Origin: a virus
Lineage: Duplodnaviria; Caudoviricetes
IMG/VR virus record: IMGVR_UViG_3300005573_000176
Span: 1 to 37,649 of that record
Strand: one strand, 5' to 3'
Length of the DNA stretch: 37,649 nt
Shown: piece by piece, positions 1 through 37,649 of the stretch
Numbering within the stretch: position 1 is the stretch's first letter
Layout: each line of letters starts with the position of its first letter
Made by a program: the position numbers and the translations under genes
Notes under the pieces: model-generated
What the model saw: only the letters and a program-made list of their open reading frames with translations
Database searches by the model: none
What the model was told of the DNA's origin: nothing

Positions 1-805
1 GTCTCAGCATATGCGGTGTCAACCCATCAACCCCAGCCACCCTGCCATACTCTCCCACCCTCCGTTGAATAAGTCTTGTACTCACACCATCCCCATGCTT
101 TCCGCAAAACAGATAAATGCCATCATTCCCCCGCACCTCCAACCATGCCTTCAAAGCCTGCCTCGCCTCCCTCCCCAGCGGAACCTCTCTTTTTTTCTCC
201 CCTTTTCCACACCACACAATCACCTTCCCCGATCGCTCCCCCAGCATCACATCCTCAACCCGCAACCCTGCCACCTCCGCCTCACGCAGCCCGCAATACA
301 ACATCAAACCGATCATCGCCCAATCTCGGACAGCTTGCACCTTCCAGTTATCTGATTTCGCCCCATTTACTGCAATCTCAACTTGCCTGAGCAATCTGCT
401 CAACTCCGCTGCCTCTAACCACCTTGGCGCCTGTTCAACCTCCTCCCAGCGCTCGATCCCCTGAAATGGGTCATAAGAAATATATCCATTTTCAAAAGAC
501 CATCTCACCAGCCTGCGCAGGCTCTCTCGATATCGATTCCATGTTGCTGGCGAATAATGATTTGCCATTATCCAAGATCGATACTCACGCAAATCTATAC
601 TCGTAATCAATGATGGATCAAATTCCTGTTTATTTACATTCTTGAACCATTTGATAAATTTATTAATATCTTCCAGATAAGATTTTATAGATTTGTTAGA
701 TAACCCATCCTCCAATAACTCTTGATGAAACGCCTGCATCCAATCCACCAATTGGAAAGGCACTTCAGCCACTCGCCATGAATTAATAACTTGACTCTTA
801 TTCAT
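1..805 (-). CDS. XerC/D-like tyrosine recombinase, 3'-truncated by window edge (diverged copy of 35975..36919)
   Basis: Position 1 aligns with 36112; ATG at 805 (MNKSQVINSWR vs MNKNQNVINSWR); GLRE, GKGEK and HMLR motifs retained. Confidence 0.88.
   Translation of the reverse strand, partial: MNKSQVINSWRVAEVPFQLVDWMQAFHQELLEDGLSNKSIKSYLEDINKFIKWFKNVNKQEFDPSLITSIDLREYRSWIMANHYSPATWNRYRESLRRLVRWSFENGYISYDPFQGIERWEEVEQAPRWLEAAELSRLLRQVEIAVNGAKSDNWKVQAVRDWAMIGLMLYCGLREAEVAGLRVEDVMLGERSGKVIVWCGKGEKKREVPLGREARQALKAWLEVRGNDGIYLFCGKHGDGVSTRLIQRRVGEYGRVAGVDGLTPHMLR
1..805. repeat. Imperfect direct repeat, copy 1 (matches 36112..36919)
   Basis: Near-identical with scattered substitutions and one codon indel near the gene start. 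Confidence 0.95.
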
Positions 806-806
806 T

Positions 807-1265
807 TTATGATTCCTTTCTTCCAATCATTTCATCCTGAACTTCTTTTACAATTCTTTCCAAATCCTCTAACTTCGCACCCCCTAATTTCGCCACCCAA
901 TCTGGCAAATCCCTCCGATCAATTTCCGTCAGCAAATAGGATGCGGCCAGATGAGCGATAATACAAAATGATTTACTCAAATTACCTCCCCAAATCTGAT
1001 AATATAAAGCATTCAAATATTCAGACAATGCATTTATTTCTCGACGCTTTAAATTAATATTCTTTCCTGATTTATCTTCTTCCAATCCAATTGCTGGCAT
1101 ATAATTTTCAACTTGAGAAGGAATATAAATAATCCCTGATCCTCTACATGTCAGACATGGATATGAAATCGTAATTGATACATTCAAACACTTTTGATCT
1201 CCATCAACCCAAAGCGGAGTTGAAACCAATCCTGTTCCATGGCATACCGGACATTTCTGATACAT
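807..1265 (-). CDS. Hypothetical protein with N-terminal DnaJ-like Zn-finger (CPVCHGTG / CLTCRGSG)
   Basis: GGAGG RBS before ATG 1265; two CxxCxGxG motifs; C-terminal domain duplicated at 37404+. Confidence 0.75.
   Translation of the reverse strand: MYQKCPVCHGTGLVSTPLWVDGDQKCLNVSITISYPCLTCRGSGIIYIPSQVENYMPAIGLEEDKSGKNINLKRREINALSEYLNALYYQIWGGNLSKSFCIIAHLAASYLLTEIDRRDLPDWVAKLGGAKLEDLERIVKEVQDEMIGRKES
831..1055. repeat. Near-perfect direct repeat, copy 1 (matches 37425..37649)
   Basis: 225 bp identical except a few substitutions (EI vs EY codon; aatgcatt vs aatacatt). Confidence 0.95.
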
Positions 1266-3010: not shown

Positions 3011-3117
3011 AAAACCAACTGACTCCCCCAAAAACAACTTCCAAAAAATGTCGTATAACCCGAAAAACAGCGTAATATGCGACAAAAAAGCCTTAAAAAA
3101 GCCATCCCATTTCCCAC

Positions 3118-3161
3118 GACTCTTAATCAGTTGGTTGCAGGTTCGAGTCCTGCACGGGTCA
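3118..3161 (+). other. attP-like core: 3' half of tRNA-Lys(CTT)
   Basis: Anticodon loop CT-CTT-AA (3120-3126), T-arm GCAGG-TTCGAGT-CCTGC, acceptor 3' strand ACGGGTC-A; no D-arm or 5' acceptor strand upstream; next to integrase. Confidence 0.88.
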
Positions 3162-3235
3162 CTGATGTCCATACCCCCATATATCCACCCTCTCCTTCCT
3201 CCCCAATCCCCCATATCTGCCTTATACCCCGTTTT

Positions 3236-3263
3236 TTGTCGCATAATATACCAAATGCGACAA
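3236..3263. promoter_or_regulatory. 11-6-11 inverted repeat TTGTCGCATAA-TATACC-AAATGCGACAA (recombinase-binding / dif-like site)
   Basis: Directly visible; related half-sites at ~3048-3058 and 3076-3086 on the other side of the att core. Confidence 0.6.
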
Positions 3264-3286
3264 ATCTTTACCCCCAGGAGCATAAA

Positions 3287-5822: not shown

Positions 5823-6554
5823 TTAACTGATCCTCATGATATACATCACCGCCTTATAGGGTGGCAAATTACTGCTTGCATCCGTCGTCGGATTTGTATG
5901 GCTGTGCGCACTCCCCGCATTTGTCGTCGGATTCGTATGGCTGTGCGCACTCCCCGCTCCGCTGGTAATATTGTAATTATGTGTATGGTAAGAATCTGGA
6001 TAATCCTTCCAACTACCCATTACCATTTCTCTATTATAACTGGTAGCACTTGTTGTTCCGGAAATGCTGTGTGTATGGCTCGACTCACTCCCCGTATTCC
6101 CTTGTGTGTGCGTATGGCTCGCTTCACTTCCCGTACTCCCTTGTGTGTGGGTGTGTGTACTCGCTCCGCCCGTCGCCCCCACCGCATAAATTCCTCCCGC
6201 CCCCACAATGAATTTATCCCGCAAATCCGGCGTCCCATTCGTCCCATCGCACAGTGCAAACCCGCTTGGAATAGTATTCGTATCTCCATACCATAAAATA
6301 ATTCCTCCAATCGGTATCCCGGCAGAAATATATTTCAACCCAAAACTTTCGCTTGCTAATGAACTTAAAATCTGCTCATTACTACCCACAGTGAATGACC
6401 CTGCCGCATCCGCTCCGCCCGCCACTACAATCTGCCCCTTCGCCGTGAAAATATCCGGTATTCCCGCCGCAAAATTGTCCCGGATATACGTATTATGGTC
6501 TGCCGCCGTCCATAAATTCCCGGTTTGCACCGTCCTAACTATCGTATAGCTCAT
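5823..6554 (-). CDS. Tail fibre protein with collar domain and HxH repeats (paralog 2)
   Basis: IPIGGIILWYG..IPSGFALCDGTNGTPDLRDKFIVGAG collar; HTH/HSH repeats; NLPPY C-terminus. Confidence 0.85.
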   Translation of the reverse strand: MSYTIVRTVQTGNLWTAADHNTYIRDNFAAGIPDIFTAKGQIVVAGGADAAGSFTVGSNEQILSSLASESFGLKYISAGIPIGGIILWYGDTNTIPSGFALCDGTNGTPDLRDKFIVGAGGIYAVGATGGASTHTHTQGSTGSEASHTHTQGNTGSESSHTHSISGTTSATSYNREMVMGSWKDYPDSYHTHNYNITSGAGSAHSHTNPTTNAGSAHSHTNPTTDASSNLPPYKAVMYIMRIS

Positions 6555-7282
6555 GAAACCCTCATGATATAAGCCAGCGCATAATAAGGCGGCAAATTAC
6601 TGCTTGCATCCGTTGTCGGGTTGGTATGCTTATGTGCGCTTCCCGCATTTGTCGTCGGATTGGTATGGCTGTGTGCACTCCCCGCTCCTGTAGTCCCTGA
6701 AAAAGTATGGGTATGAGTATCACTTGCAATTAATGCACCTGATCCTGATGCTAATGATGTAGTTTGCGAAGCCCCTCCCGTCGTTCCTGAATAACTGTGC
6801 GTGTGGCTCGACTCACTTCCCGTATTTCCCTGTGTGTGCGTGTGACTCGATTCAAGCCCCGTATCGCCCTGCGTATGCGTGTGTGTACTTGCTCCGCCCG
6901 TTGCCCCCACCGCATAACTTCCTCCTGCCCCTACAATAAATTTATCCCGCAAATCCGGCGTCCCACTCGTCCCATCACACAGCGCAAACCCATTAGGAAT
7001 ATTCCCCACACTCCCACTCCAGATAATGATCCCTCCAATCGGTATTCCCGCCCAGGCATACTTCAATCCCAAACTCTGGCTCGAATCCGCCATCAGCACC
7101 TGTCCGTCACTGCCCGGATTCAGCACTCCCGCCGCATTCTCCCCGCTCGCCACCGCAATCTGCCCCTTCGCCGTGAAAATATCCGGCACCCCCGCCGCAA
7201 AATTGTCCCGAATATAAGTATTGTGGTTAGCCGCCGTCCATAAATCGCCTGTCGTCACCGTCGGCACCGGGTTATAAGCCAT
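6551..7282 (-). CDS. Tail fibre protein with collar domain and HxH repeats (paralog 1)
   Basis: Same architecture and length (243 aa) as 5823..6554. Confidence 0.85.
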   Translation of the reverse strand: MAYNPVPTVTTGDLWTAANHNTYIRDNFAAGVPDIFTAKGQIAVASGENAAGVLNPGSDGQVLMADSSQSLGLKYAWAGIPIGGIIIWSGSVGNIPNGFALCDGTSGTPDLRDKFIVGAGGSYAVGATGGASTHTHTQGDTGLESSHTHTQGNTGSESSHTHSYSGTTGGASQTTSLASGSGALIASDTHTHTFSGTTGAGSAHSHTNPTTNAGSAHKHTNPTTDASSNLPPYYALAYIMRVS

Positions 7283-22050: not shown

Positions 22051-22346
22051 TATGATTTTGGACTGATGGTATAAATCGTCTGATTAGCCATCACAGCCAG
22101 AATAAAAACTTTCAAAAGTTCCACTGCGCCGCTCTTGTCGCAGGTTACCGCCACGCCCAAATCCTGCCCCACTCCCGCACATGCCAGCGCATAAGACCCT
22201 CCCGCTACAATCACCAGCAATGCCAGCATGATCAACCGCTTATGCACACCATCCAGCTTCCCAAACCATTCGTTCAATCCAGGCACGTACGAAAACAACA
22301 ATGAAAGCACCGCCGAAGCTACAAGAGACAAAGTCTCAGCCGACAT
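22050..22346 (-). CDS. Putative holin
   Basis: 98 aa, 2-3 TM segments, AAGGAGG RBS, first gene of late operon. Confidence 0.7.
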   Translation of the reverse strand: MSAETLSLVASAVLSLLFSYVPGLNEWFGKLDGVHKRLIMLALLVIVAGGSYALACAGVGQDLGVAVTCDKSGAVELLKVFILAVMANQTIYTISPKS

Positions 22347-22372
22347 ATCACACCTCCTTTGTTAAAATATTT

Positions 22373-22403
22373 CGCCCGAAGCTGTTCCAAACAACTTCGG
22401 GCG
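22373..22403 (-). terminator. Strong hairpin in late-operon leader (attenuator-like)
   Basis: CGCCCGAAG(TTGTT)-TGG-(AACAG)CTTCGGGCG, ~14-bp stem followed by AAATATTTT. Confidence 0.55.
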
Positions 22404-22518
22404 CTCAACTCCGATCTTACCCGTCCAATCGCCGGGCTTGCTAAATTTTCATCAGTTCAGCGGGGGGTGGGGAAACCTGGTGGGGGTCAGGCGGGAGCCC
22501 CCCGCCTCGCTTATCTGC

Positions 22519-22547
22519 ATTATAGCGAATCCTCTATTCATTGTCAA
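22519..22547 (-). promoter_or_regulatory. Consensus sigma70 promoter for late operon leader
   Basis: TTGACA (22547-22542), 17 bp, TATAAT (22524-22519). Confidence 0.8.
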
Positions 22548-24502: not shown

Positions 24503-24530
24503 AAGCCGCCAAATATCGGCGGCTTTTTTT
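24503..24530 (+). terminator. Intrinsic terminator between convergent operons
   Basis: AAGCCGCC-AAATATC-GGCGGCTT followed by T-run. Confidence 0.85.
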
Positions 24531-25311
24531 ATATATATGCCCTTACTTCCGGAAATTCCGCCGCAAATTCATTGAATAAATCCGGATACATTCGCTTCAA
24601 AAACACCAGTCTTCCATACCTCATGGATCTCGTTCCAAACATCGCCCCATTACGCGCCAGTTCCCTTCCCTCCGGCGCCATATCATATAATTCGTTATAG
24701 GGGAGATTTGCGCTGACAATATATGCCCAAATATCCTTGCCATTCCATCTTGCCAGTGGACAGCACACCCATTGCTCCCTTACGCTGGCAAAATAAATCT
24801 CTCCTCTCATCGCAAATAACCTGCTTCGGATGTAACTCTCCTCCGATCTCATTCCAATAAACGTCCCATCAAATCCTCTTTTCTTTGCCTCCCTATCTAA
24901 TACTTTCCCAAGTGATTCGGCATATTCCCGCTGAGCAATCCTCGCTTCTCTAGTCATTTCCTCATCCTGTATATATAATCCAACTTTTTGATAATATTCC
25001 CAGATTGACGGCCCCTCTAATTCAATGAACTCCATTCCAGCATGTCTCTCCAAAAATATCTCTTTTACCCGCACCGTATCCGGCCATTCATCATATTTTC
25101 CGCAATTTACATACATCACCGGCGTACTTGGATACCTATTGAGAATAATATCTGCCATTACCAAACTATCTTTACCAAAAGACATGCTGATATATGGCTT
25201 TTCCATATAATCAAATCCTTTTGCTATATTCCGTTCCGCCTGCTCTATCTTTCGACTAAATCGATCTAATTTTGCCCATAACAAATATTGATTTCGTTCC
25301 GTTTCATCCAT
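24529..25311 (-). CDS. cysH: CysH / PAPS-reductase-like protein (type IV-B accessory)
   Basis: PP-loop SMSFGKDS, GMRSEES..R, PLARW...DIWAYI....LPYNELYD. Confidence 0.9.
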   Translation of the reverse strand: MDETERNQYLLWAKLDRFSRKIEQAERNIAKGFDYMEKPYISMSFGKDSLVMADIILNRYPSTPVMYVNCGKYDEWPDTVRVKEIFLERHAGMEFIELEGPSIWEYYQKVGLYIQDEEMTREARIAQREYAESLGKVLDREAKKRGFDGTFIGMRSEESYIRSRLFAMRGEIYFASVREQWVCCPLARWNGKDIWAYIVSANLPYNELYDMAPEGRELARNGAMFGTRSMRYGRLVFLKRMYPDLFNEFAAEFPEVRAYI

Positions 25312-25811
25312 TTTTCCAATCTCTTCCTCACCAGCTGACGATGACAATTAATCCGATGTAATGATAATCCAAGCTCCATCGCAATCCCTGCTGTCGTATC
25401 TCCATTACAAATCCTCGTCAATATTTCCACATCCCTTTCAATATATGCTTTCAATCTTCCATTTTTACTCACTGCAGATATTATTTTTCTGATTTCATCC
25501 TCCAAATCCACTATGTTTTGCTCTTCCTGCAGTATATCCGCTGTCTTTTCATAATTATCAATACTTACCGGCGCTGATATTCTCATACCCCTTATCTTAT
25601 CCCACTTAGCCCCATATATCCACCAGATCAGCCAGTTTTTTGCCCTGATTTTCCCGCTTCCTAACCTGTATTTCTCACTTTTTCTTCTCGTCTCCCAAAT
25701 AGCTAGATAAGCCTCTTGGATCATATCCGCGAGATCATCATCGCAAACGGGATAACCAATCCTGCCAGCCACTGTCTTAGCAGCACAAATCGCCAGTTGA
25801 TAATCATCCAT
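25266..25811 (-). CDS. Sigma70/ECF-like factor (region 2-like plus C-terminal HTH)
   Basis: DDLADMIQEAYLAIWE resembles sigma region 2; GDTTAGIAMELGLSLHRINCHRQLVRKRL resembles region 4 / LuxR HTH. Confidence 0.65.
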   Translation of the reverse strand: MDDYQLAICAAKTVAGRIGYPVCDDDLADMIQEAYLAIWETRRKSEKYRLGSGKIRAKNWLIWWIYGAKWDKIRGMRISAPVSIDNYEKTADILQEEQNIVDLEDEIRKIISAVSKNGRLKAYIERDVEILTRICNGDTTAGIAMELGLSLHRINCHRQLVRKRLEKWMKRNEINICYGQN

Positions 25812-26490
25812 ATGGCATAACCAGCTCCATCTGATTTCGTTTATCCCAATAAGGCGGCCGGATCCCATAATTCATCATCTTTGGCAATCCTTTCTCCCTT
25901 GGCCAATGATAGATTGGTATCCCCCGCATTAATCTGTCGCCATTCCAGATCGATTTATCCTCCGCCATCTCCTCTATCTCCCATTTCCTCACCTTTCCCC
26001 ATCCCTGCACAACCTTCTTACCGAGATGGGTAATCATTTGCAATATACTCTCCAACCACTCTCTTTCTGCGACAAGATACCACTCGACCCATAATGTTGA
26101 CCGATAATAGACAGGCATCCGATATCCCTTATATTGCCCGGCGCTCGTGTCAATCTTTCCGCGCCGGGCTCGGAAATCAATCAAATAAGCCAGTGACTGA
26201 TCCAACCGCTTGCTCCAGGCATCCTGACCATCCACATACGGTCCCCATTGCGCCCAAGAGGCTCGATAATACCAGTCTTTCGCATGCACAATCTCAATCG
26301 GCATCCTTCCGCCCCTCATCTCCTCCCCATGCGGAGCGGCAAGCCAAGACACTCCAGGCAGCGTACTGGCTCGCACTCCCATATCCATCCTGCACCACTG
26401 ATACAACAAAACGCCATCCAGTGGTAGATATTGATCTGCCACTATCGGCGTGCTCATCCATGCTCTCACCCGCAAATTACTGTAACCCAT
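25804..26490 (-). CDS. csf3: Type IV CRISPR-associated Csf3 (Cas5-group RAMP)
   Basis: LPLDGVL, Y.AS, G.YK.YR.P, G-rich loop HLGKKVVQGWGKV, GIRPPYW; follows csf2. Confidence 0.85.
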   Translation of the reverse strand: MGYSNLRVRAWMSTPIVADQYLPLDGVLLYQWCRMDMGVRASTLPGVSWLAAPHGEEMRGGRMPIEIVHAKDWYYRASWAQWGPYVDGQDAWSKRLDQSLAYLIDFRARRGKIDTSAGQYKGYRMPVYYRSTLWVEWYLVAEREWLESILQMITHLGKKVVQGWGKVRKWEIEEMAEDKSIWNGDRLMRGIPIYHWPREKGLPKMMNYGIRPPYWDKRNQMELVMPYG

Positions 26491-27454
26491 CCAACATCTC
26501 CTTGATTTTGTCTCCATGCTCCTGCAAATGTTGAAGATAATGCGTCCCCAAAGCAAAATCAATCTCTTTTCCGCTTGGCGCAGTACGTGGGTTGATCTCC
26601 ATCCATTTGTCAAATCGGATTGCAACCTTCCCATGTCCAACCCCACTTTTTCCCCCAATATAAGGCCACTTTGAAAACTCCGCTAGCGTCACACAAAACG
26701 CATCGAATTCCACATCCGTCACATCATCCAGCGCCACATCCCAATATAACCTCGTTCCCGCTGCAATTGTCTCGACATAATATCGCATCTGTTGAGATTG
26801 CCCGGTCTCTCCAGCCACATCTTCATCCGTTCCTCGCCTCGACCGCTTCGCCGCTGCGCTTTCCTCCAGCAAATTTCGGATATCCGGTGCTATTAATTGC
26901 CTTAATTGCTCATTCTTTTCATCATCCCGTCTGGTATAGGCTTCTTCCTGGATCATATCCCAGATTGATTTTTCATCTCCGCTCACAAACCGCTCCGGCA
27001 CAATATGTGCCGTCTCTTTGCATATCGGTATTACTTTCCCAATCTTGGCATTTCCAGGCATAATTTGATTTCCCATCGCCCCGCCGAATAATGCCACCAG
27101 TGGTATTGTCTTTCGCCATCGCCTTGCCTCATCCACATCGAGATTAGAATTTCCACTCACTTTCGTCAATGATCCCCCCGAAAAGAGAAAATAAAATGCC
27201 GCCAGGCTCAAACCCTGAATTTCTCCAGTCTCCTCATTGATGCCATATCCCAGCACTTTTAGCATATGCAGCATTCCCCTGTCGCGTAATATTCCCCGTA
27301 TCGAATTTCCACTGATAACCGGTACTTCTTCAAATGTCCCATCAGGCTGGATAATTTTCTCTCTTCGCAGCTTTGCATTAATCCCAAAAGTATCCCCAAT
27401 GTGGCTGATTGATGTTAGCGCAGTCATCTCTCCCTCAAATACATAGGTTTTCAT
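26477..27454 (-). CDS. csf2: Type IV CRISPR-associated Csf2 (Cas7-group backbone RAMP)
   Basis: ALTSISH, VPVISGNSIRGILRD, LFSGGSL, PLVALFGG, G-rich loop IGGKSGVGHGKV. Confidence 0.9.
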   Translation of the reverse strand: MKTYVFEGEMTALTSISHIGDTFGINAKLRREKIIQPDGTFEEVPVISGNSIRGILRDRGMLHMLKVLGYGINEETGEIQGLSLAAFYFLFSGGSLTKVSGNSNLDVDEARRWRKTIPLVALFGGAMGNQIMPGNAKIGKVIPICKETAHIVPERFVSGDEKSIWDMIQEEAYTRRDDEKNEQLRQLIAPDIRNLLEESAAAKRSRRGTDEDVAGETGQSQQMRYYVETIAAGTRLYWDVALDDVTDVEFDAFCVTLAEFSKWPYIGGKSGVGHGKVAIRFDKWMEINPRTAPSGKEIDFALGTHYLQHLQEHGDKIKEMLDGLQ

Positions 27455-27819
27455 TCCTCAATCTCCTTTTCTAATTTTTGTTTTTCATTCCATGCCGATT
27501 TTCTCTCTTCGTTATCCACTCGTACCATCAAAACAAGTAATGTTGTCTCTTCCCGCAGCATTTTCAACATCTCCTTATCATTCGCTTCCCGGATAATTTG
27601 ATTGAATAATGACCTCTCCGCTTCCGTCCTTCCCGGCTGGCTGCGCAATTTTGAACAGAGAGTATTGATAAACTTCGGCAGGCTGCTGGTGTAAGCCGCC
27701 GATTTTATCTCGTTCTCGAATTGCTCCCAGATCGTCATTCGATATCGGCTTTTGTAATCCGCCGATATCCCCTGCCATATCATCCGCAGCATGGTTGCTG
27801 TCATTTCCTTCGTTTCCAT
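27451..27819 (-). CDS. cas11: Type IV-B small subunit (Cas11-like)
   Basis: ~122-aa all-helical protein between csf1 and csf2; AAGGAG RBS; IW..F...IKSAA, F...LC.KL. Confidence 0.75.
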   Translation of the reverse strand: METKEMTATMLRMIWQGISADYKSRYRMTIWEQFENEIKSAAYTSSLPKFINTLCSKLRSQPGRTEAERSLFNQIIREANDKEMLKMLREETTLLVLMVRVDNEERKSAWNEKQKLEKEIEE

Positions 27820-28429
27820 CTTCACTCCTTTGCGCCAAAAATAGCGCCAATTGAAATAATCCTTTTCCTCTCTCTTTCTTTATTTCATTCTCCAGCCTCT
27901 CCCATCGTTCGAATCCAAATTTGATAATTCGATGGGCAGCATACTTTCCGCTTTCAATTTCTGACTTGCTGAATGTCGTATATAAATTTTCTACTTTATC
28001 AATTAACCTCCTCAATATTTCTGAATCAACCCAGATAGATTGTTCTTCGAATTGCACCCATCCGCAATGTTGTCCTATTGGATTCCGCCGCGCCCGGAAT
28101 GCGAGATGTTTTTGTCCGCTTACAGCGATCACCGCCATCTCCGGGAATTCTCCCTCTATCAATAGTCTTTTCATTTCATTTTTATTTCCCTTGCCAACTG
28201 GAATCCATTCTCCTTTCACGACAAAGTGGCTGTAATTTTGCATTTTCTGTGGGATTTCTTTGCCCATCTTCCTCTGCAATTCTGCCGAAGATTGATCGAA
28301 CCAAAATAAACAATCATCACAAATAACATCACCATCCCCCACTAACAAATCGTAATTCGTAAACGTATCTTTTACCCATTTATTGAATTCAACACCCTCT
28401 TTTTCCTGCCCACAAATTTTACATTTCAT
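27578..28429 (-). CDS. csf1: Type IV large subunit Csf1 (Cas8-like, Zn-finger)
   Basis: CKICG...FTNYDLL...ICDDC, SGQKH, FSKSEI..G.Y; GAGG RBS before ATG 28429. Confidence 0.82.
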   Translation of the reverse strand: MKCKICGQEKEGVEFNKWVKDTFTNYDLLVGDGDVICDDCLFWFDQSSAELQRKMGKEIPQKMQNYSHFVVKGEWIPVGKGNKNEMKRLLIEGEFPEMAVIAVSGQKHLAFRARRNPIGQHCGWVQFEEQSIWVDSEILRRLIDKVENLYTTFSKSEIESGKYAAHRIIKFGFERWERLENEIKKERGKGLFQLALFLAQRSEDGNEGNDSNHAADDMAGDIGGLQKPISNDDLGAIRERDKIGGLHQQPAEVYQYSLFKIAQPAGKDGSGEVIIQSNYPGSE

Positions 28430-31559: not shown

Positions 31560-31960
31560 TTCCAATTGTTAACGGTTTTTACAATATTAACAATCGTTAA
31601 TAATTGCCTGTTTGTAAACCGTTTTTCTATTAACAAACGTTAATAAAAGGTGAACTTGGTGAACTTGGGTGAAAATTTTTTTTTAGCAAGTTCACCTTTC
31701 TTATATTTCGTTAACATTCCATAGCATCATCATCACCGTTAAAGCTCATATAAGTTCACCAAAGTTCACAAGTTCATCATTTTTGCCTATTTTTAAGCCA
31801 TAGCATTGCAGATTTATGATTGCTCCTCCAAAATAATTGCATTTTTCTGTTTTAATCCTGCGCGGTGAACTTGGTGAACTTACTTTTCCTTTCCAGAGCA
31901 AAAAAAAATATTTTTTTATTTTTGCACTTTTTCCCCCAACAAAGTTCACCAAGTTCACCA
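31560..31960. repeat. Probable replication origin: AAGTTCACC iterons in both orientations plus AT-rich palindromes
   Basis: GGTGAACTT at 31649, 31658, 31864, 31873; AAGTTCACC at 31688, 31752, 31942, 31951; variants at 31762, 31770; directly downstream of primase. Confidence 0.8.
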
Positions 31961-32007
31961 TTTGTCTGACAAATAAAACTCGCCCGTCTATAAAATCAAT
32001 CCTCTTT

Positions 32008-34647: not shown

Positions 34648-34828
34648 AAAGATTCTCCAACAAAAACCGTTTTACAAATCTAGCTCAGAATATCTGCGCC
34701 ACTAACATCACAGCCCTTAAAAAATTTAGAAATGATCACCCCCCTTCCCCCCTCTCGCATTATGCGACAAAAAACAACCACATAACACATGGTCATGTGG
34801 TTGCAAAATGGGCTTAAAAAGCATTCTT

Positions 34829-34856
34829 TTGTCGCATAATGCTTATTATGCGACAT
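34829..34856. promoter_or_regulatory. dif-like 28-bp site TTGTCGCATAA-TGCTTA-TTATGCGACAT
   Basis: 11-6-11 near-perfect inverted repeat with the CGCATAA-N6-TTATG core of dif sites; extra half-site TTATGCGACAA at ~34760. Confidence 0.7.
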
Positions 34857-35988: not shown

Positions 35989-36919
35989 CCTCTAAATCAC
36001 TCCATCCTGGTACAACATACCTGGCTGTCGTATCCAATCGCTTATGCCCCAATAAACGGCTTACCACCGTCAACGGCTCGCCCTTATCCAATAATCGTTT
36101 GGCAAATGTATGTCTCAGCATATGCGGTGTCAACCCATCAATCCCAGCCAACCTGCCATACTCTCCCACCCTCCGTTGAATAAGTCTTGTACTCACACCA
36201 TCCCCATGCTTTCCGCAAAACAGATAAATGCCATCATTCCCTCGCACATCCAACCACGCCTTCAAAGCCTGCCTCGCCTCCCTTCCCAGCGGCACCTCTC
36301 TTTTTTTCTCCCCTTTTCCGCACCACACAATCACCTTCCCCGATCGCTCCCCCAGCATCACATCCTCAACCCGCAACCCTGCCACCTCCGCCTCACGCAG
36401 CCCGCTATACAACATCAAACCGATCATCGCCCAATCTCGGACAGCTTGTATCTTCCAGCTATCTGATTTCGCCCCATTTACAGCAATCTCAACTTGCCTG
36501 AGTAATCTACTCAACTCCGCTGCCTCTAACCACCTCGGCGCCTGTTCAACCTCCTCCCAGCGCTCGACCCCCTGAAATGGGTCATAAGAAATATATCCAT
36601 TTTCAAAAGCCCATCTCACCAGCCTGCGCAGGCTCTCTCGATATCGATTCCATGTCGCTGGCGAATAATGATTTGCCATTATCCAAGATCGATACTCACG
36701 CAAATCTATACTCGTAATCAATGAGGGATCAAATTCCTGCTTATTTACATTCTTGAACCATTTGATAAATTTATTAATATCTTCCAAATAAGACTTTATC
36801 GACTTGATGGATAACCCATCCTCCAATAACTCTTGATGAAACGCCTGCATCCAATCCACCAATTGGAAAGGCACTTCAGCCACTCGCCATGAATTAATTA
36901 CATTTTGATTTTTATTCAT
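35975..36919 (-). CDS. XerC/D-like tyrosine recombinase
   Basis: SAM-like N-terminus, GLREAE, GKGEK, TPHMLRHTFA, LLGH, TARY. Confidence 0.93.
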   Translation of the reverse strand: MNKNQNVINSWRVAEVPFQLVDWMQAFHQELLEDGLSIKSIKSYLEDINKFIKWFKNVNKQEFDPSLITSIDLREYRSWIMANHYSPATWNRYRESLRRLVRWAFENGYISYDPFQGVERWEEVEQAPRWLEAAELSRLLRQVEIAVNGAKSDSWKIQAVRDWAMIGLMLYSGLREAEVAGLRVEDVMLGERSGKVIVWCGKGEKKREVPLGREARQALKAWLDVRGNDGIYLFCGKHGDGVSTRLIQRRVGEYGRLAGIDGLTPHMLRHTFAKRLLDKGEPLTVVSRLLGHKRLDTTARYVVPGWSDLEDAVE

Positions 36920-36934
36920 CTCATCATTCCTTCT

Positions 36935-37381
36935 CTATTTTTTTATTAATTCAGATTGTATATCTCCAAATATTTCTTCCAAAGAAATAAATTGTGAATT
37001 TGCAATCGCGATAATCCAATATGGCAATACATCTGGATCGAACTCCATTATTAAATCCCGGGCAGCCAGATAAGCGATAGTTAAAAATAATGATTTATTT
37101 CTCGCTGGTTCTTCAAAATAGATAAAACGCTTTAAAGCATCAATGTAATTTTGTATTGTTCTGTTTTTTTCTTCATCAGATTTGAATTTTTGTATTCGTT
37201 TTGTGATTGGATTTTTAATATTCACTTTATATTGATTTTCAATAATAGGACGGGCCGATGATAAACGACAAGGAATACTGTTTAGATAAATAAGATCATC
37301 ATCTGGATAACATGGCCCGACATCCTCAAGATTTCCAATTAATACTTCGCCTTCTAATGTATCAATTAAAAATTTGAACAT
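36935..37381 (-). CDS. Hypothetical protein, distant paralog of neighbour's C-terminal domain
   Basis: AAGGAG RBS; KSLFLTIAYLAA..L.....DVLPYW matches KSFCIIAHLAA..L.....DLPDW. Confidence 0.75.
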   Translation of the reverse strand: MFKFLIDTLEGEVLIGNLEDVGPCYPDDDLIYLNSIPCRLSSARPIIENQYKVNIKNPITKRIQKFKSDEEKNRTIQNYIDALKRFIYFEEPARNKSLFLTIAYLAARDLIMEFDPDVLPYWIIAIANSQFISLEEIFGDIQSELIKK

Positions 37382-37403
37382 AAAATTCTCCTTTTATTCA
37401 CTA

Positions 37404-37649
37404 TCAACATTTTTTTCCTTGTAATTCATCCTGAACTTCTTTTACAATTCTTTCCAAATCCTCTAACTTCGCACCCCCTAATTTCGCCACCCAATCTGGC
37501 AAATCCCTCCGATCATATTCCGTCAGCAAATAGGATGCGGCCAGATGAGCGATAATACAAAATGATTTACTCAAATTACCTCCCCAAATCTGATAATATA
37601 AAGCATTCAAATATTCAGACAATACATTTATTTCTCGACGCTTTAAATT
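37404..37649 (-). CDS. 3' part of homolog of 807..1265 (5'-truncated by window edge)
   Basis: Near-identical to 831..1055 with a different C-terminal tail. Confidence 0.8.
   Translation of the reverse strand, partial: NLKRREINVLSEYLNALYYQIWGGNLSKSFCIIAHLAASYLLTEYDRRDLPDWVAKLGGAKLEDLERIVKEVQDELQGKKC

What the first reader, a model, noticed from the sequence alone, without database searches (positions are those of the whole stretch)
25266..25811. Sigma-factor-like gene wedged between csf3 and cysH: possible RNA-guided transcription control
Seen: a 181-aa ORF overlapping both csf3 (8 bp) and cysH (46 bp), with a region-2-like D..DMIQEAYLAIWE motif and a C-terminal HTH. Known: canonical IV-B loci have no such subunit. 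Inference: a nuclease-free Cascade-like complex co-expressed with an atypical sigma could recruit RNA polymerase to guide-specified sites, or the sigma could drive expression of the missing guide or of late genes. It may instead be an ordinary phage late activator that landed here.
Basis: inference. Interest (0 to 1): 0.8.

Follow-up and report, generated by a model that had tools for sequence, protein, structure and literature searches.

The report
Sigma factor riding phage IV-B cassette
A bacterial virus carries a CRISPR-derived gene cassette of unknown purpose (type IV-B) that includes a sigma-factor-like gene; this gene sits in the same place in the cassettes of unrelated viruses but is missing from most such cassettes, so it is likely an optional, guide-independent transcription regulator rather than an RNA-guided one.

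Summary
The 181-aa ORF overlaps csf3 by 8 bp and cysH by 46 bp. It has a sigma-2-like domain plus an HTH, scores below curated sigma cut-offs, and shows purifying selection (pN/pS 0.14). It is not a one-off. Homologues at 34-44% identity fill the same csf3-cysH slot in two other phages that share only the cassette with the window, and the tails of two more homologues appear to overlap a cysH gene. All fall in one weakly supported subclade; seven more distant relatives with context have no csf genes. The gene is optional: 3 of 23 cassettes carry it, 12 have an empty slot, 6 carry a separate small HTH family, and 24 of 26 Csf2-bearing virus records lack it. No guide RNA, no C-terminal extension like that of the dCas12f sigma, and no co-phylogeny were found. 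Best reading (0.5): a cassette-borne, guide-independent ECF-like sigma acting on host or cassette promoters. A backbone late activator is less likely (0.2). An RNA-guided Csf-sigma complex is not excluded (0.08). An earlier scan note reported an ECF-like gene in this slot in another phage. I found no paper on the link.

The parts
25266..25811 (-). ECF-like sigma gene, 181 aa (P0001)
25608..25811 (-). sigma-2-like three-helix domain, residues 1-68, with the D-x-x-Q-E motif (residues 29-33) and the subfamily motif W-x-x-W-W-x-Y-G (residues 60-67)
25314..25439 (-). sigma-4/LuxR-type HTH, residues 125-166
   Evidence: Pfam GerE E 1.7e-5; VIA Z 6.4-7.5 to sigma-4 and LuxR-type domains
27578..28429 (-). 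csf1; its tail, read over cas11 in another frame, holds QYSLF
   Evidence: TIGR03114 E 4.3e-5
27451..27825 (-). cas11-like small subunit, named by size, position and homologues in related cassettes; no cas family profile hit
26477..27454 (-). csf2 (Cas7-like)
   Evidence: TIGR03115 E 7.9e-21; Pfam RAMPs
25804..26490 (-). csf3 (Cas5-like); its stop overlaps the sigma start by 8 bp
   Evidence: TIGR03116 E 6.6e-15
24529..25311 (-). cysH-like gene, last gene of the operon; overlaps the sigma end by 46 bp; belongs to a different CysH clade than in the two other sigma cassettes
   Evidence: PF01507 E 4.2e-16
24503..24525 (.). terminator-like hairpin between cysH and the convergent + strand genes
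   Evidence: scored on the + strand
22519..22547 (-). perfect TTGACA-17-TATAAT site ahead of the lysis/packaging operon; bears on the late-activator rival

Best explanation
The gene encodes a divergent ECF-like sigma protein that sits inside a mobile type IV-B cassette, and it likely works as an optional, guide-independent regulator that would load on host core RNA polymerase and read promoters with its own HTH. Shown: the two-domain architecture, tight overlaps with csf3 and cysH, purifying selection, the same slot in three phages whose backbones are unrelated, and absence from most cassettes. Inferred: it is made together with Csf3 and CysH at the end of the replication operon, and it binds core polymerase through the conserved D29/Q32/E33 face (residue roles recalled from sigma-70 region 2.2, not tested). 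Its target is likely portable, in the host genome or in the cassette, and not the late promoter of any one phage backbone. The target promoter was not found.
For: Sigma-like: TIGR02937 E 1.8e-7 over residues 25-167. The family profile hits Fusobacterium SigH almost end to end, E 3.9e-5. The top 15 Foldseek rows are all sigma factors or their complexes, best E 4.7e-3. Cassette-borne: the window shares only csf1, csf2, csf3, sigma and cysH with G804 (37 ORFs compared) and G805 (66 ORFs compared) at E<=1e-3; cas11 was dropped by my overlap filter. The three loci fall in one 7-row Csf3 clade (95/94). The sigma stayed in place while the window's CysH was exchanged. Optional and replaceable: 3 of 23 cassettes (window plus 22 loci). 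A separate small HTH family fills the slot in 6 of them. That family matched 6 of 28 virus records and none of the 3 sigma-bearing ones. Self-sufficient design: the protein ends a few residues after the HTH, and distant relatives of the same architecture occur without csf genes.
Against: Sigma membership rests on sub-threshold scores. For the isolated N-domain, sigma-2 matches (Z 6.3-6.7) rank with or below unrelated helical bundles (best Z 7.6), and Foldseek gives E>=1.4. No shared promoter was found upstream of csf1, and csf1 overlaps or abuts its upstream gene in the window and G805, which leaves little room for a cassette promoter. Long retention between two coupled genes could be hitch-hiking. 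Only three loci have direct DNA context. The 12-row sigma clade has modest support (91/75). One strain contig carries a nonsense change.
Confidence: 0.5

Rival explanations
1. It is a phage late- or middle-gene activator that hitch-hikes in the cassette's cargo slot.
For: In the window and G805 the cassette ends the replication operon, and in G804 it follows the replication genes. A distant relative in phage record G779 lies in the middle region ahead of holin, terminase and portal with no csf2. Atlas neighbours include mostly viral clusters of the same size.
Against: The three backbones are unrelated, so one cognate late promoter cannot travel with the gene. The window's late operon has a perfect housekeeping-type promoter. 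The related provirus G799 has no sigma match and has a similar promoter and hairpin leader before its holin. In G805 the late genes start far away on the other strand. 0 of 6 near-complete Csf2 virus records carry the family.
Confidence: 0.2
2. The sigma-like protein and the small HTH family are interchangeable DNA-binding adaptors that address the Csf/CysH machinery to DNA sites by protein-DNA recognition, with little role for RNA polymerase.
For: Both families fill the same slot and never co-occurred in 28 records. They share only an HTH (32 columns, probability 66%). A clamp-binding-like Q-x-x-L/M-F/L/Y motif ends Csf1 in 19 of 26 sequences, which points the cassette at DNA (motif meaning recalled).
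Against: 12 of 23 cassettes have neither gene. The D-x-x-Q-E motif is conserved, which an adaptor would not need.
Confidence: 0.15
3. A Csf ribonucleoprotein binds this sigma and recruits RNA polymerase to guide-specified sites, a class 1 counterpart of dCas12f-sigmaE.
For: A whole subclade appears tied to the cassette: 3 shown, 2 more inferred from tails that score as CysH starts in another frame, 1 weak. It is translationally coupled on both sides. A precedent exists, with HTH genes nearby as well (PMC12259090). Type IV-B has no nuclease (PMC12669027).
Against: Absent from 20 of 23 cassettes and from 24 of 26 Csf2 virus records. No C-terminal extension. The window-G804 pair is closest in Csf1, Csf2 and Csf3 but most distant in sigma. 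No array and no Rfam match in the window. The solved IV-B complex resembles type III-A and assembled on heterogeneous RNA (PMC8175902 passages).
Confidence: 0.08
4. It is a dispensable passenger with a core-polymerase decoy effect at most.
For: A nonsense allele in one contig. Frequent loss within the Csf3 clade (4 of 7 rows lack it).
Against: pN/pS 0.14. Conserved motifs in both domains at 34-44% identity.
Confidence: 0.07

Closest known systems
Type IV-B CRISPR-Cas (csf1-cas11-csf2-csf3 plus cysH-like; PMC8175902, 10.1101/780106, PMC10848311)
   Same: Same gene set, no array, no dinG or cas6 in the cassette, carried by a mobile element.
   Different: A sigma-like gene lies between csf3 and cysH. 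The word 'sigma' does not occur in the main text of these three papers or of the 2025 classification.
dCas12f-gRNA-sigmaE RNA-guided transcription (PMC12259090; 10.1101/2025.06.10.658880)
   Same: A nuclease-free CRISPR-derived effector in an operon with an ECF-like sigma that has no anti-sigma gene beside it; HTH genes recur nearby.
   Different: There the linkage is strong, the pair co-evolves, a guide is known, and a unique C-terminal domain binds the effector. Here the sigma is in 3 of 23 cassettes, has no such extension and has no known guide.
Group 4 (ECF) sigma-70 factors, e.g. Fusobacterium SigH (3mzy), M. tuberculosis SigL (6dv9), E. coli sigmaE (1or7)
   Same: About 180 aa, sigma-2-like domain, flexible linker, sigma-4-like HTH, D-x-x-Q-E motif.
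   Different: Below curated cut-offs. The HTH scores better as LuxR/GerE. The end of region 2 carries an aromatic W-x-x-W-W-x-Y-G motif.
Accessory phage-encoded sigma factors (PMC9429907, abstract only)
   Same: A phage sigma that may be non-essential and may act on host genes.
   Different: Those are sporulation-like sigmas of phages of spore-forming Bacillota; this family is tied to a CRISPR-derived cassette of likely Anaerolineae phages.

Membership tests
ECF (group 4) sigma factor | Compact two-domain build: helical N-domain, linker, C-terminal HTH, about 180 aa | tested here: met
   AF2 model pLDDT 83 with a low-confidence linker; top 15 Foldseek rows all sigma, best E 4.7e-3; profile hit to SigH 3mzy E 3.9e-5
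ECF (group 4) sigma factor | N-domain has the sigma-2 fold | tested here: inconclusive
   Sigma70_r2 matches 6 of 14 family members at E 0.005-0.1, below cut-off for the window protein; VIA Z 6.3-7.1 to sigma-2 domains, tied with unrelated bundles
ECF (group 4) sigma factor | Region 2.2 core-binding motif D-x-x-Q-E (residue roles recalled) | tested here: met
   D29 nearly invariant; Q and E in the consensus of 23 sequences
ECF (group 4) sigma factor | Binds core RNA polymerase and directs promoter-specific initiation | not testable with these tools
   needs a holoenzyme assay
Type IV-B CRISPR-Cas (the cassette) | csf1, cas11, csf2, csf3 and a cysH-like gene | tested here: met
   (csf profiles below cut-off); cas11 by position and homologues
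Type IV-B CRISPR-Cas (the cassette) | No CRISPR array, no dinG, no cas6 at the locus | tested here: met
   no array-like repeat family and no Rfam match; no such gene among the ORFs scanned around the cassette; the record is rated 73% complete
dCas12f-sigmaE type RNA-guided transcription | Sigma nearly always linked to the effector | tested here: not met
   3 of 23 cassettes; 2 of 26 virus records
dCas12f-sigmaE type RNA-guided transcription | Co-evolution of sigma and effector | tested here: inconclusive
   only three loci; identity ranks disagree; shared Csf3 clade but not a resolved Csf2 clade
dCas12f-sigmaE type RNA-guided transcription | C-terminal extension on sigma that binds the effector | tested here: not met
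   linked members end within about 15 residues of the last helix, and those tails are the cysH overlap; feature
dCas12f-sigmaE type RNA-guided transcription | Dedicated guide RNA | tested here: inconclusive
   no array or Rfam match; an unknown RNA is not excluded, e.g. the structured leader at 22345-22513
dCas12f-sigmaE type RNA-guided transcription | Physical effector-sigma complex that recruits RNA polymerase | not testable with these tools
   needs pull-down and ChIP-seq

The most novel reading that the evidence does not exclude
One lineage of phage type IV-B cassettes has domesticated an ECF-like sigma as a subunit, so that a nuclease-free class 1 Csf complex places RNA polymerase at RNA-specified sites. 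This would be the first class 1 RNA-guided activator and the first function assigned to type IV-B.
Probability: 0.08. Interest if true: 0.9.

Novelty: new variant of a known kind. Interest (0 to 1): 0.45.

Why it matters
Type IV-B is the CRISPR subtype with no known function. A sigma-like subfamily that stays inside the cassette across unrelated phages, and alternates there with a small HTH family, links some IV-B cassettes to transcription control and gives a simple test: ChIP-seq and RNA-seq of the sigma with and without csf genes. The value is limited because the slot takes many kinds of cargo, so this gene is unlikely to explain IV-B as a whole.

Tried and rejected
Complex prediction of the sigma (residues 1-174) with Csf1 (1-205), Csf3 and CysH gave no verdict: score 0.00, controls not folded; Csf2, Cas11 and RNA polymerase were not included. 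No fused longer form was found among 7998 candidates (weak evidence). No match for P0001 in the phage collection or for P0005 in plasmids. The A3 profile found nothing in 401 genomes of the order of G002, and A4 nothing in 401 genomes of the phylum of G003; neither search had a positive control. Viral scans with P0001 and A7 found no loci; scans with A1, A5 and a W-x-x-W-W-x-Y-G-A pattern returned only the same two records. The hunt for a shared bipartite promoter was uninformative: 523 shared words against 294-390 in crude shuffles that do not keep local AT content. No conserved element upstream of csf1 in 7 loci. The N-domain profile against PDB sequences hit only calmodulin by chance. No RNA holder listed. 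No contig joint skipping the sigma gene in the runs laid. GC content does not single the gene out in the window. I rejected 'one-off insertion' (recurrence shown) and 'core IV-B subunit' (absent from most cassettes).

Full report
Observation. The ORF, both overlaps, the motif and the HTH are as described. The window is a virus record rated 73% complete, with integrase, primase, terminase, portal and major head genes. The minus-strand order is csf1, cas11, csf2, csf3, sigma-like, cysH, then a terminator-like hairpin. The host is inferred to be Chloroflexota: 4 of 6 genome loci with this Csf2 clade are titled Chloroflexi or Anaerolineae groups, the other two Brevinema and Syntrophomonadaceae. 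Near-identical DNA lies in hot-spring, sediment and mat runs; the best run may be the window's own source. Among 26 variant alleles (30 rows, less two in the cysH overlap and two outside the ORF), 17 are synonymous and 9 are not, pN/pS 0.14; one is a nonsense change in a single contig.

Is it a sigma? The evidence is consistent but sub-threshold. TIGR02937 covers residues 25-167 (E 1.8e-7, below cut-off). A 23-sequence profile hits Fusobacterium SigH almost end to end (E 3.9e-5), although its best hits are LuxR-type HTH domains. The AF2 model has a three-helix N-domain, a low-confidence linker and an HTH domain. The top 15 Foldseek rows are sigma factors, none at E<=0.001. The isolated N-domain matches sigma-2 domains at Z 6.3-6.7, level with unrelated helical bundles. 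D29 is nearly invariant, with Q32 and E33 in the consensus. I call it ECF-like, not a filed ECF member.

Recurrence. Csf2 scans gave 34 loci (28 viral, 6 genomic). Three were near-duplicates, and nine had another gene order, no cysH in the locus or a truncation. That left 22 with csf3 followed by cysH. The slot held this sigma family in 2, a separate small HTH family in 6, a kinase in 1, an unnamed 253-aa ORF in 1 and nothing in 12. With the window, that is 3 of 23. The sigma family matched 2 of 26 Csf2-bearing virus records and 0 of the 6 near-complete ones. The HTH family matched 6 of 28 records and none of the 3 sigma-bearing ones.

The sigma travels with the cassette. The window shares only csf1, csf2, csf3, sigma and cysH with G804 and G805; those two also share DnaB (34%) and a small terminase (32%). 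The three sigmas are 34-44% identical, Csf3 56-60% and Csf2 72-76%; the window's CysH is 34-36% to the other two, which share 64%. The three loci lie in one 7-row Csf3 clade (95/94, bootstrap not fully settled) with two HTH loci and two empty ones; the Csf2 tree does not group all three.

Homologues without contigs. I scored protein tails for a CysH N-terminus in another frame. The known overlaps scored 11.1 and 15.4; the third known neighbour scored -5.1 because its overlap is too short. P0004 scored 11.2 and P0006 10.7. Only 1 of 191 control tails scored as high, and that one is a cas6 that truly overlaps cysH. P0007 scored 7.6, reached by 6 of 191. P0004 is 62% identical to the window protein, so its tail is not independent. 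All six fall in one 12-row clade (91/75); the other six members have no context.

Unlinked relatives. Six distant full-length members in five Anaerolineae-class genomes (L079 twice, L080, L081, L082, L084) and one in phage record G779 have no csf genes in their loci. They lie beside integrases, Tn7-like genes or a phage late module. Four of these genomes and G779 had no Csf2 match. In what appears to be the same 401-genome draw, Csf3 matched 5 genomes, none of them among the 7 with a sigma-family match; two of those 7 were partial or HTH-only hits. So the family is a general mobile-element regulator, and one subclade was captured by the cassette (inference).

Mechanism. A late-gene sigma needs cognate promoters in its backbone, yet this gene moves between unrelated backbones. 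The window's lysis/packaging operon has a perfect TTGACA-17-TATAAT site, the sigma-less relative G799 has a similar arrangement, and in G804 and G805 the gene after cysH has a housekeeping-like promoter by eye. An effector-bound sigma should be near-obligate and carry a docking element. In the known case the linkage is strong, the pair co-evolves and a unique C-terminal domain binds dCas12f; none of this is seen here. The remaining reading is a portable, guide-independent sigma whose target lies in the host or the cassette. No target was found. Confidence: 0.5 for this, 0.2 late activator, 0.15 DNA-binding adaptor, 0.08 RNA-guided, 0.07 passenger.

Literature. Full-text searches for 'type IV-B + CRISPR + cysH + sigma factor' and 'Csf3 + sigma factor + type IV CRISPR' returned 0 papers. 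One search listed two works: the Bathyarchaeia virus paper, whose journal version has no 'sigma' in its main text, and PMC11519345 (listing only). Seen: passages of PMC10848311, PMC8175902, PMC12669027, 10.1101/780106 and 10.1101/2025.06.10.658880; abstract and one section of PMC12259090; abstract of PMC9429907; listing of PMC7937560. I read no supplements, and gene-neighbourhood tables there could list such genes. Most subscription papers are not in the library. Earlier scan notes (unchecked) report an ECF-like gene in this slot in another phage and many other cargo genes there; a search with this protein found no look-alike in the scan.

Verdict. A real, selected, recurrent but optional accessory gene of one phage IV-B lineage. 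New variant of a known kind; interest 0.45.

Noticed in passing
window 27578-27820 (csf1 tail over cas11); alignment A10: Csf1 continues out of frame across cas11 and carries Q-x-x-L/M-F/L/Y near its end in 19 of 26 sequences (QYSLF in the window), like a sliding-clamp binding motif (meaning recalled).
   Followed up: partly
L031:8654-8989, L033:8654-8974, L035:5854-6222, L010:3173-3499, L056:3494-3850, L005:3037-3591, L036:5921-6409: An unnamed small HTH family (single or doubled) sits at csf3-cysH in 7 loci, after cysH in L036; each of its 6 matches in 28 virus records was at the cassette.
   Followed up: partly
window 22345-22547 (-): Perfect housekeeping-type promoter, then a structured leader of about 160 nt (z -2.5) with a 14-bp hairpin before the holin: a possible antitermination leader or small RNA.
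   Followed up: partly
L054:7975-8622, L058:7919-8638: IV-B cassettes with cas6 between csf2 and cysH (Pfam CRISPR_Cas6); arrays not looked for.
   Followed up: no
window 24757-24790, 25980, 26315, 26972, 27089: Contigs of runs X3 and X6 continue from matches in cysH, csf3 and csf2 into one shared repeat that looks like a CRISPR repeat, suggesting host spacers against the cassette.
   Followed up: no
window 1-1055 and 36112-37649: The start of the record repeats part of its end at 96-97% identity, including integrase sequence: terminal redundancy, duplication or an assembly effect.
   Followed up: no
window 3073-3264 and 34757-34855: A repeated inverted motif around TTTTGTCGCATAAT, operator-like.
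   Followed up: no
window 31645-31963: Repeated inverted AAGTTCACC units just downstream of the primase gene, possibly a replication origin.
   Followed up: no
L052:6372-7967 (G799): A related provirus (Cas11 88%, Csf2 81%) has csf2 cut at residue 164 and lacks csf3, sigma and cysH at this locus, where a 192-aa ORF stands instead.
   Followed up: partly
L079:5081-7462, L080:407-1255, L084:2290-3060: Distant sigma-family members occur as a tandem pair near an integrase, and divergently from Tn7-like transposition genes.
   Followed up: no
window 5823-7282: Two tandem 243-aa paralogues, 79-85% alike in DNA.
   Followed up: no
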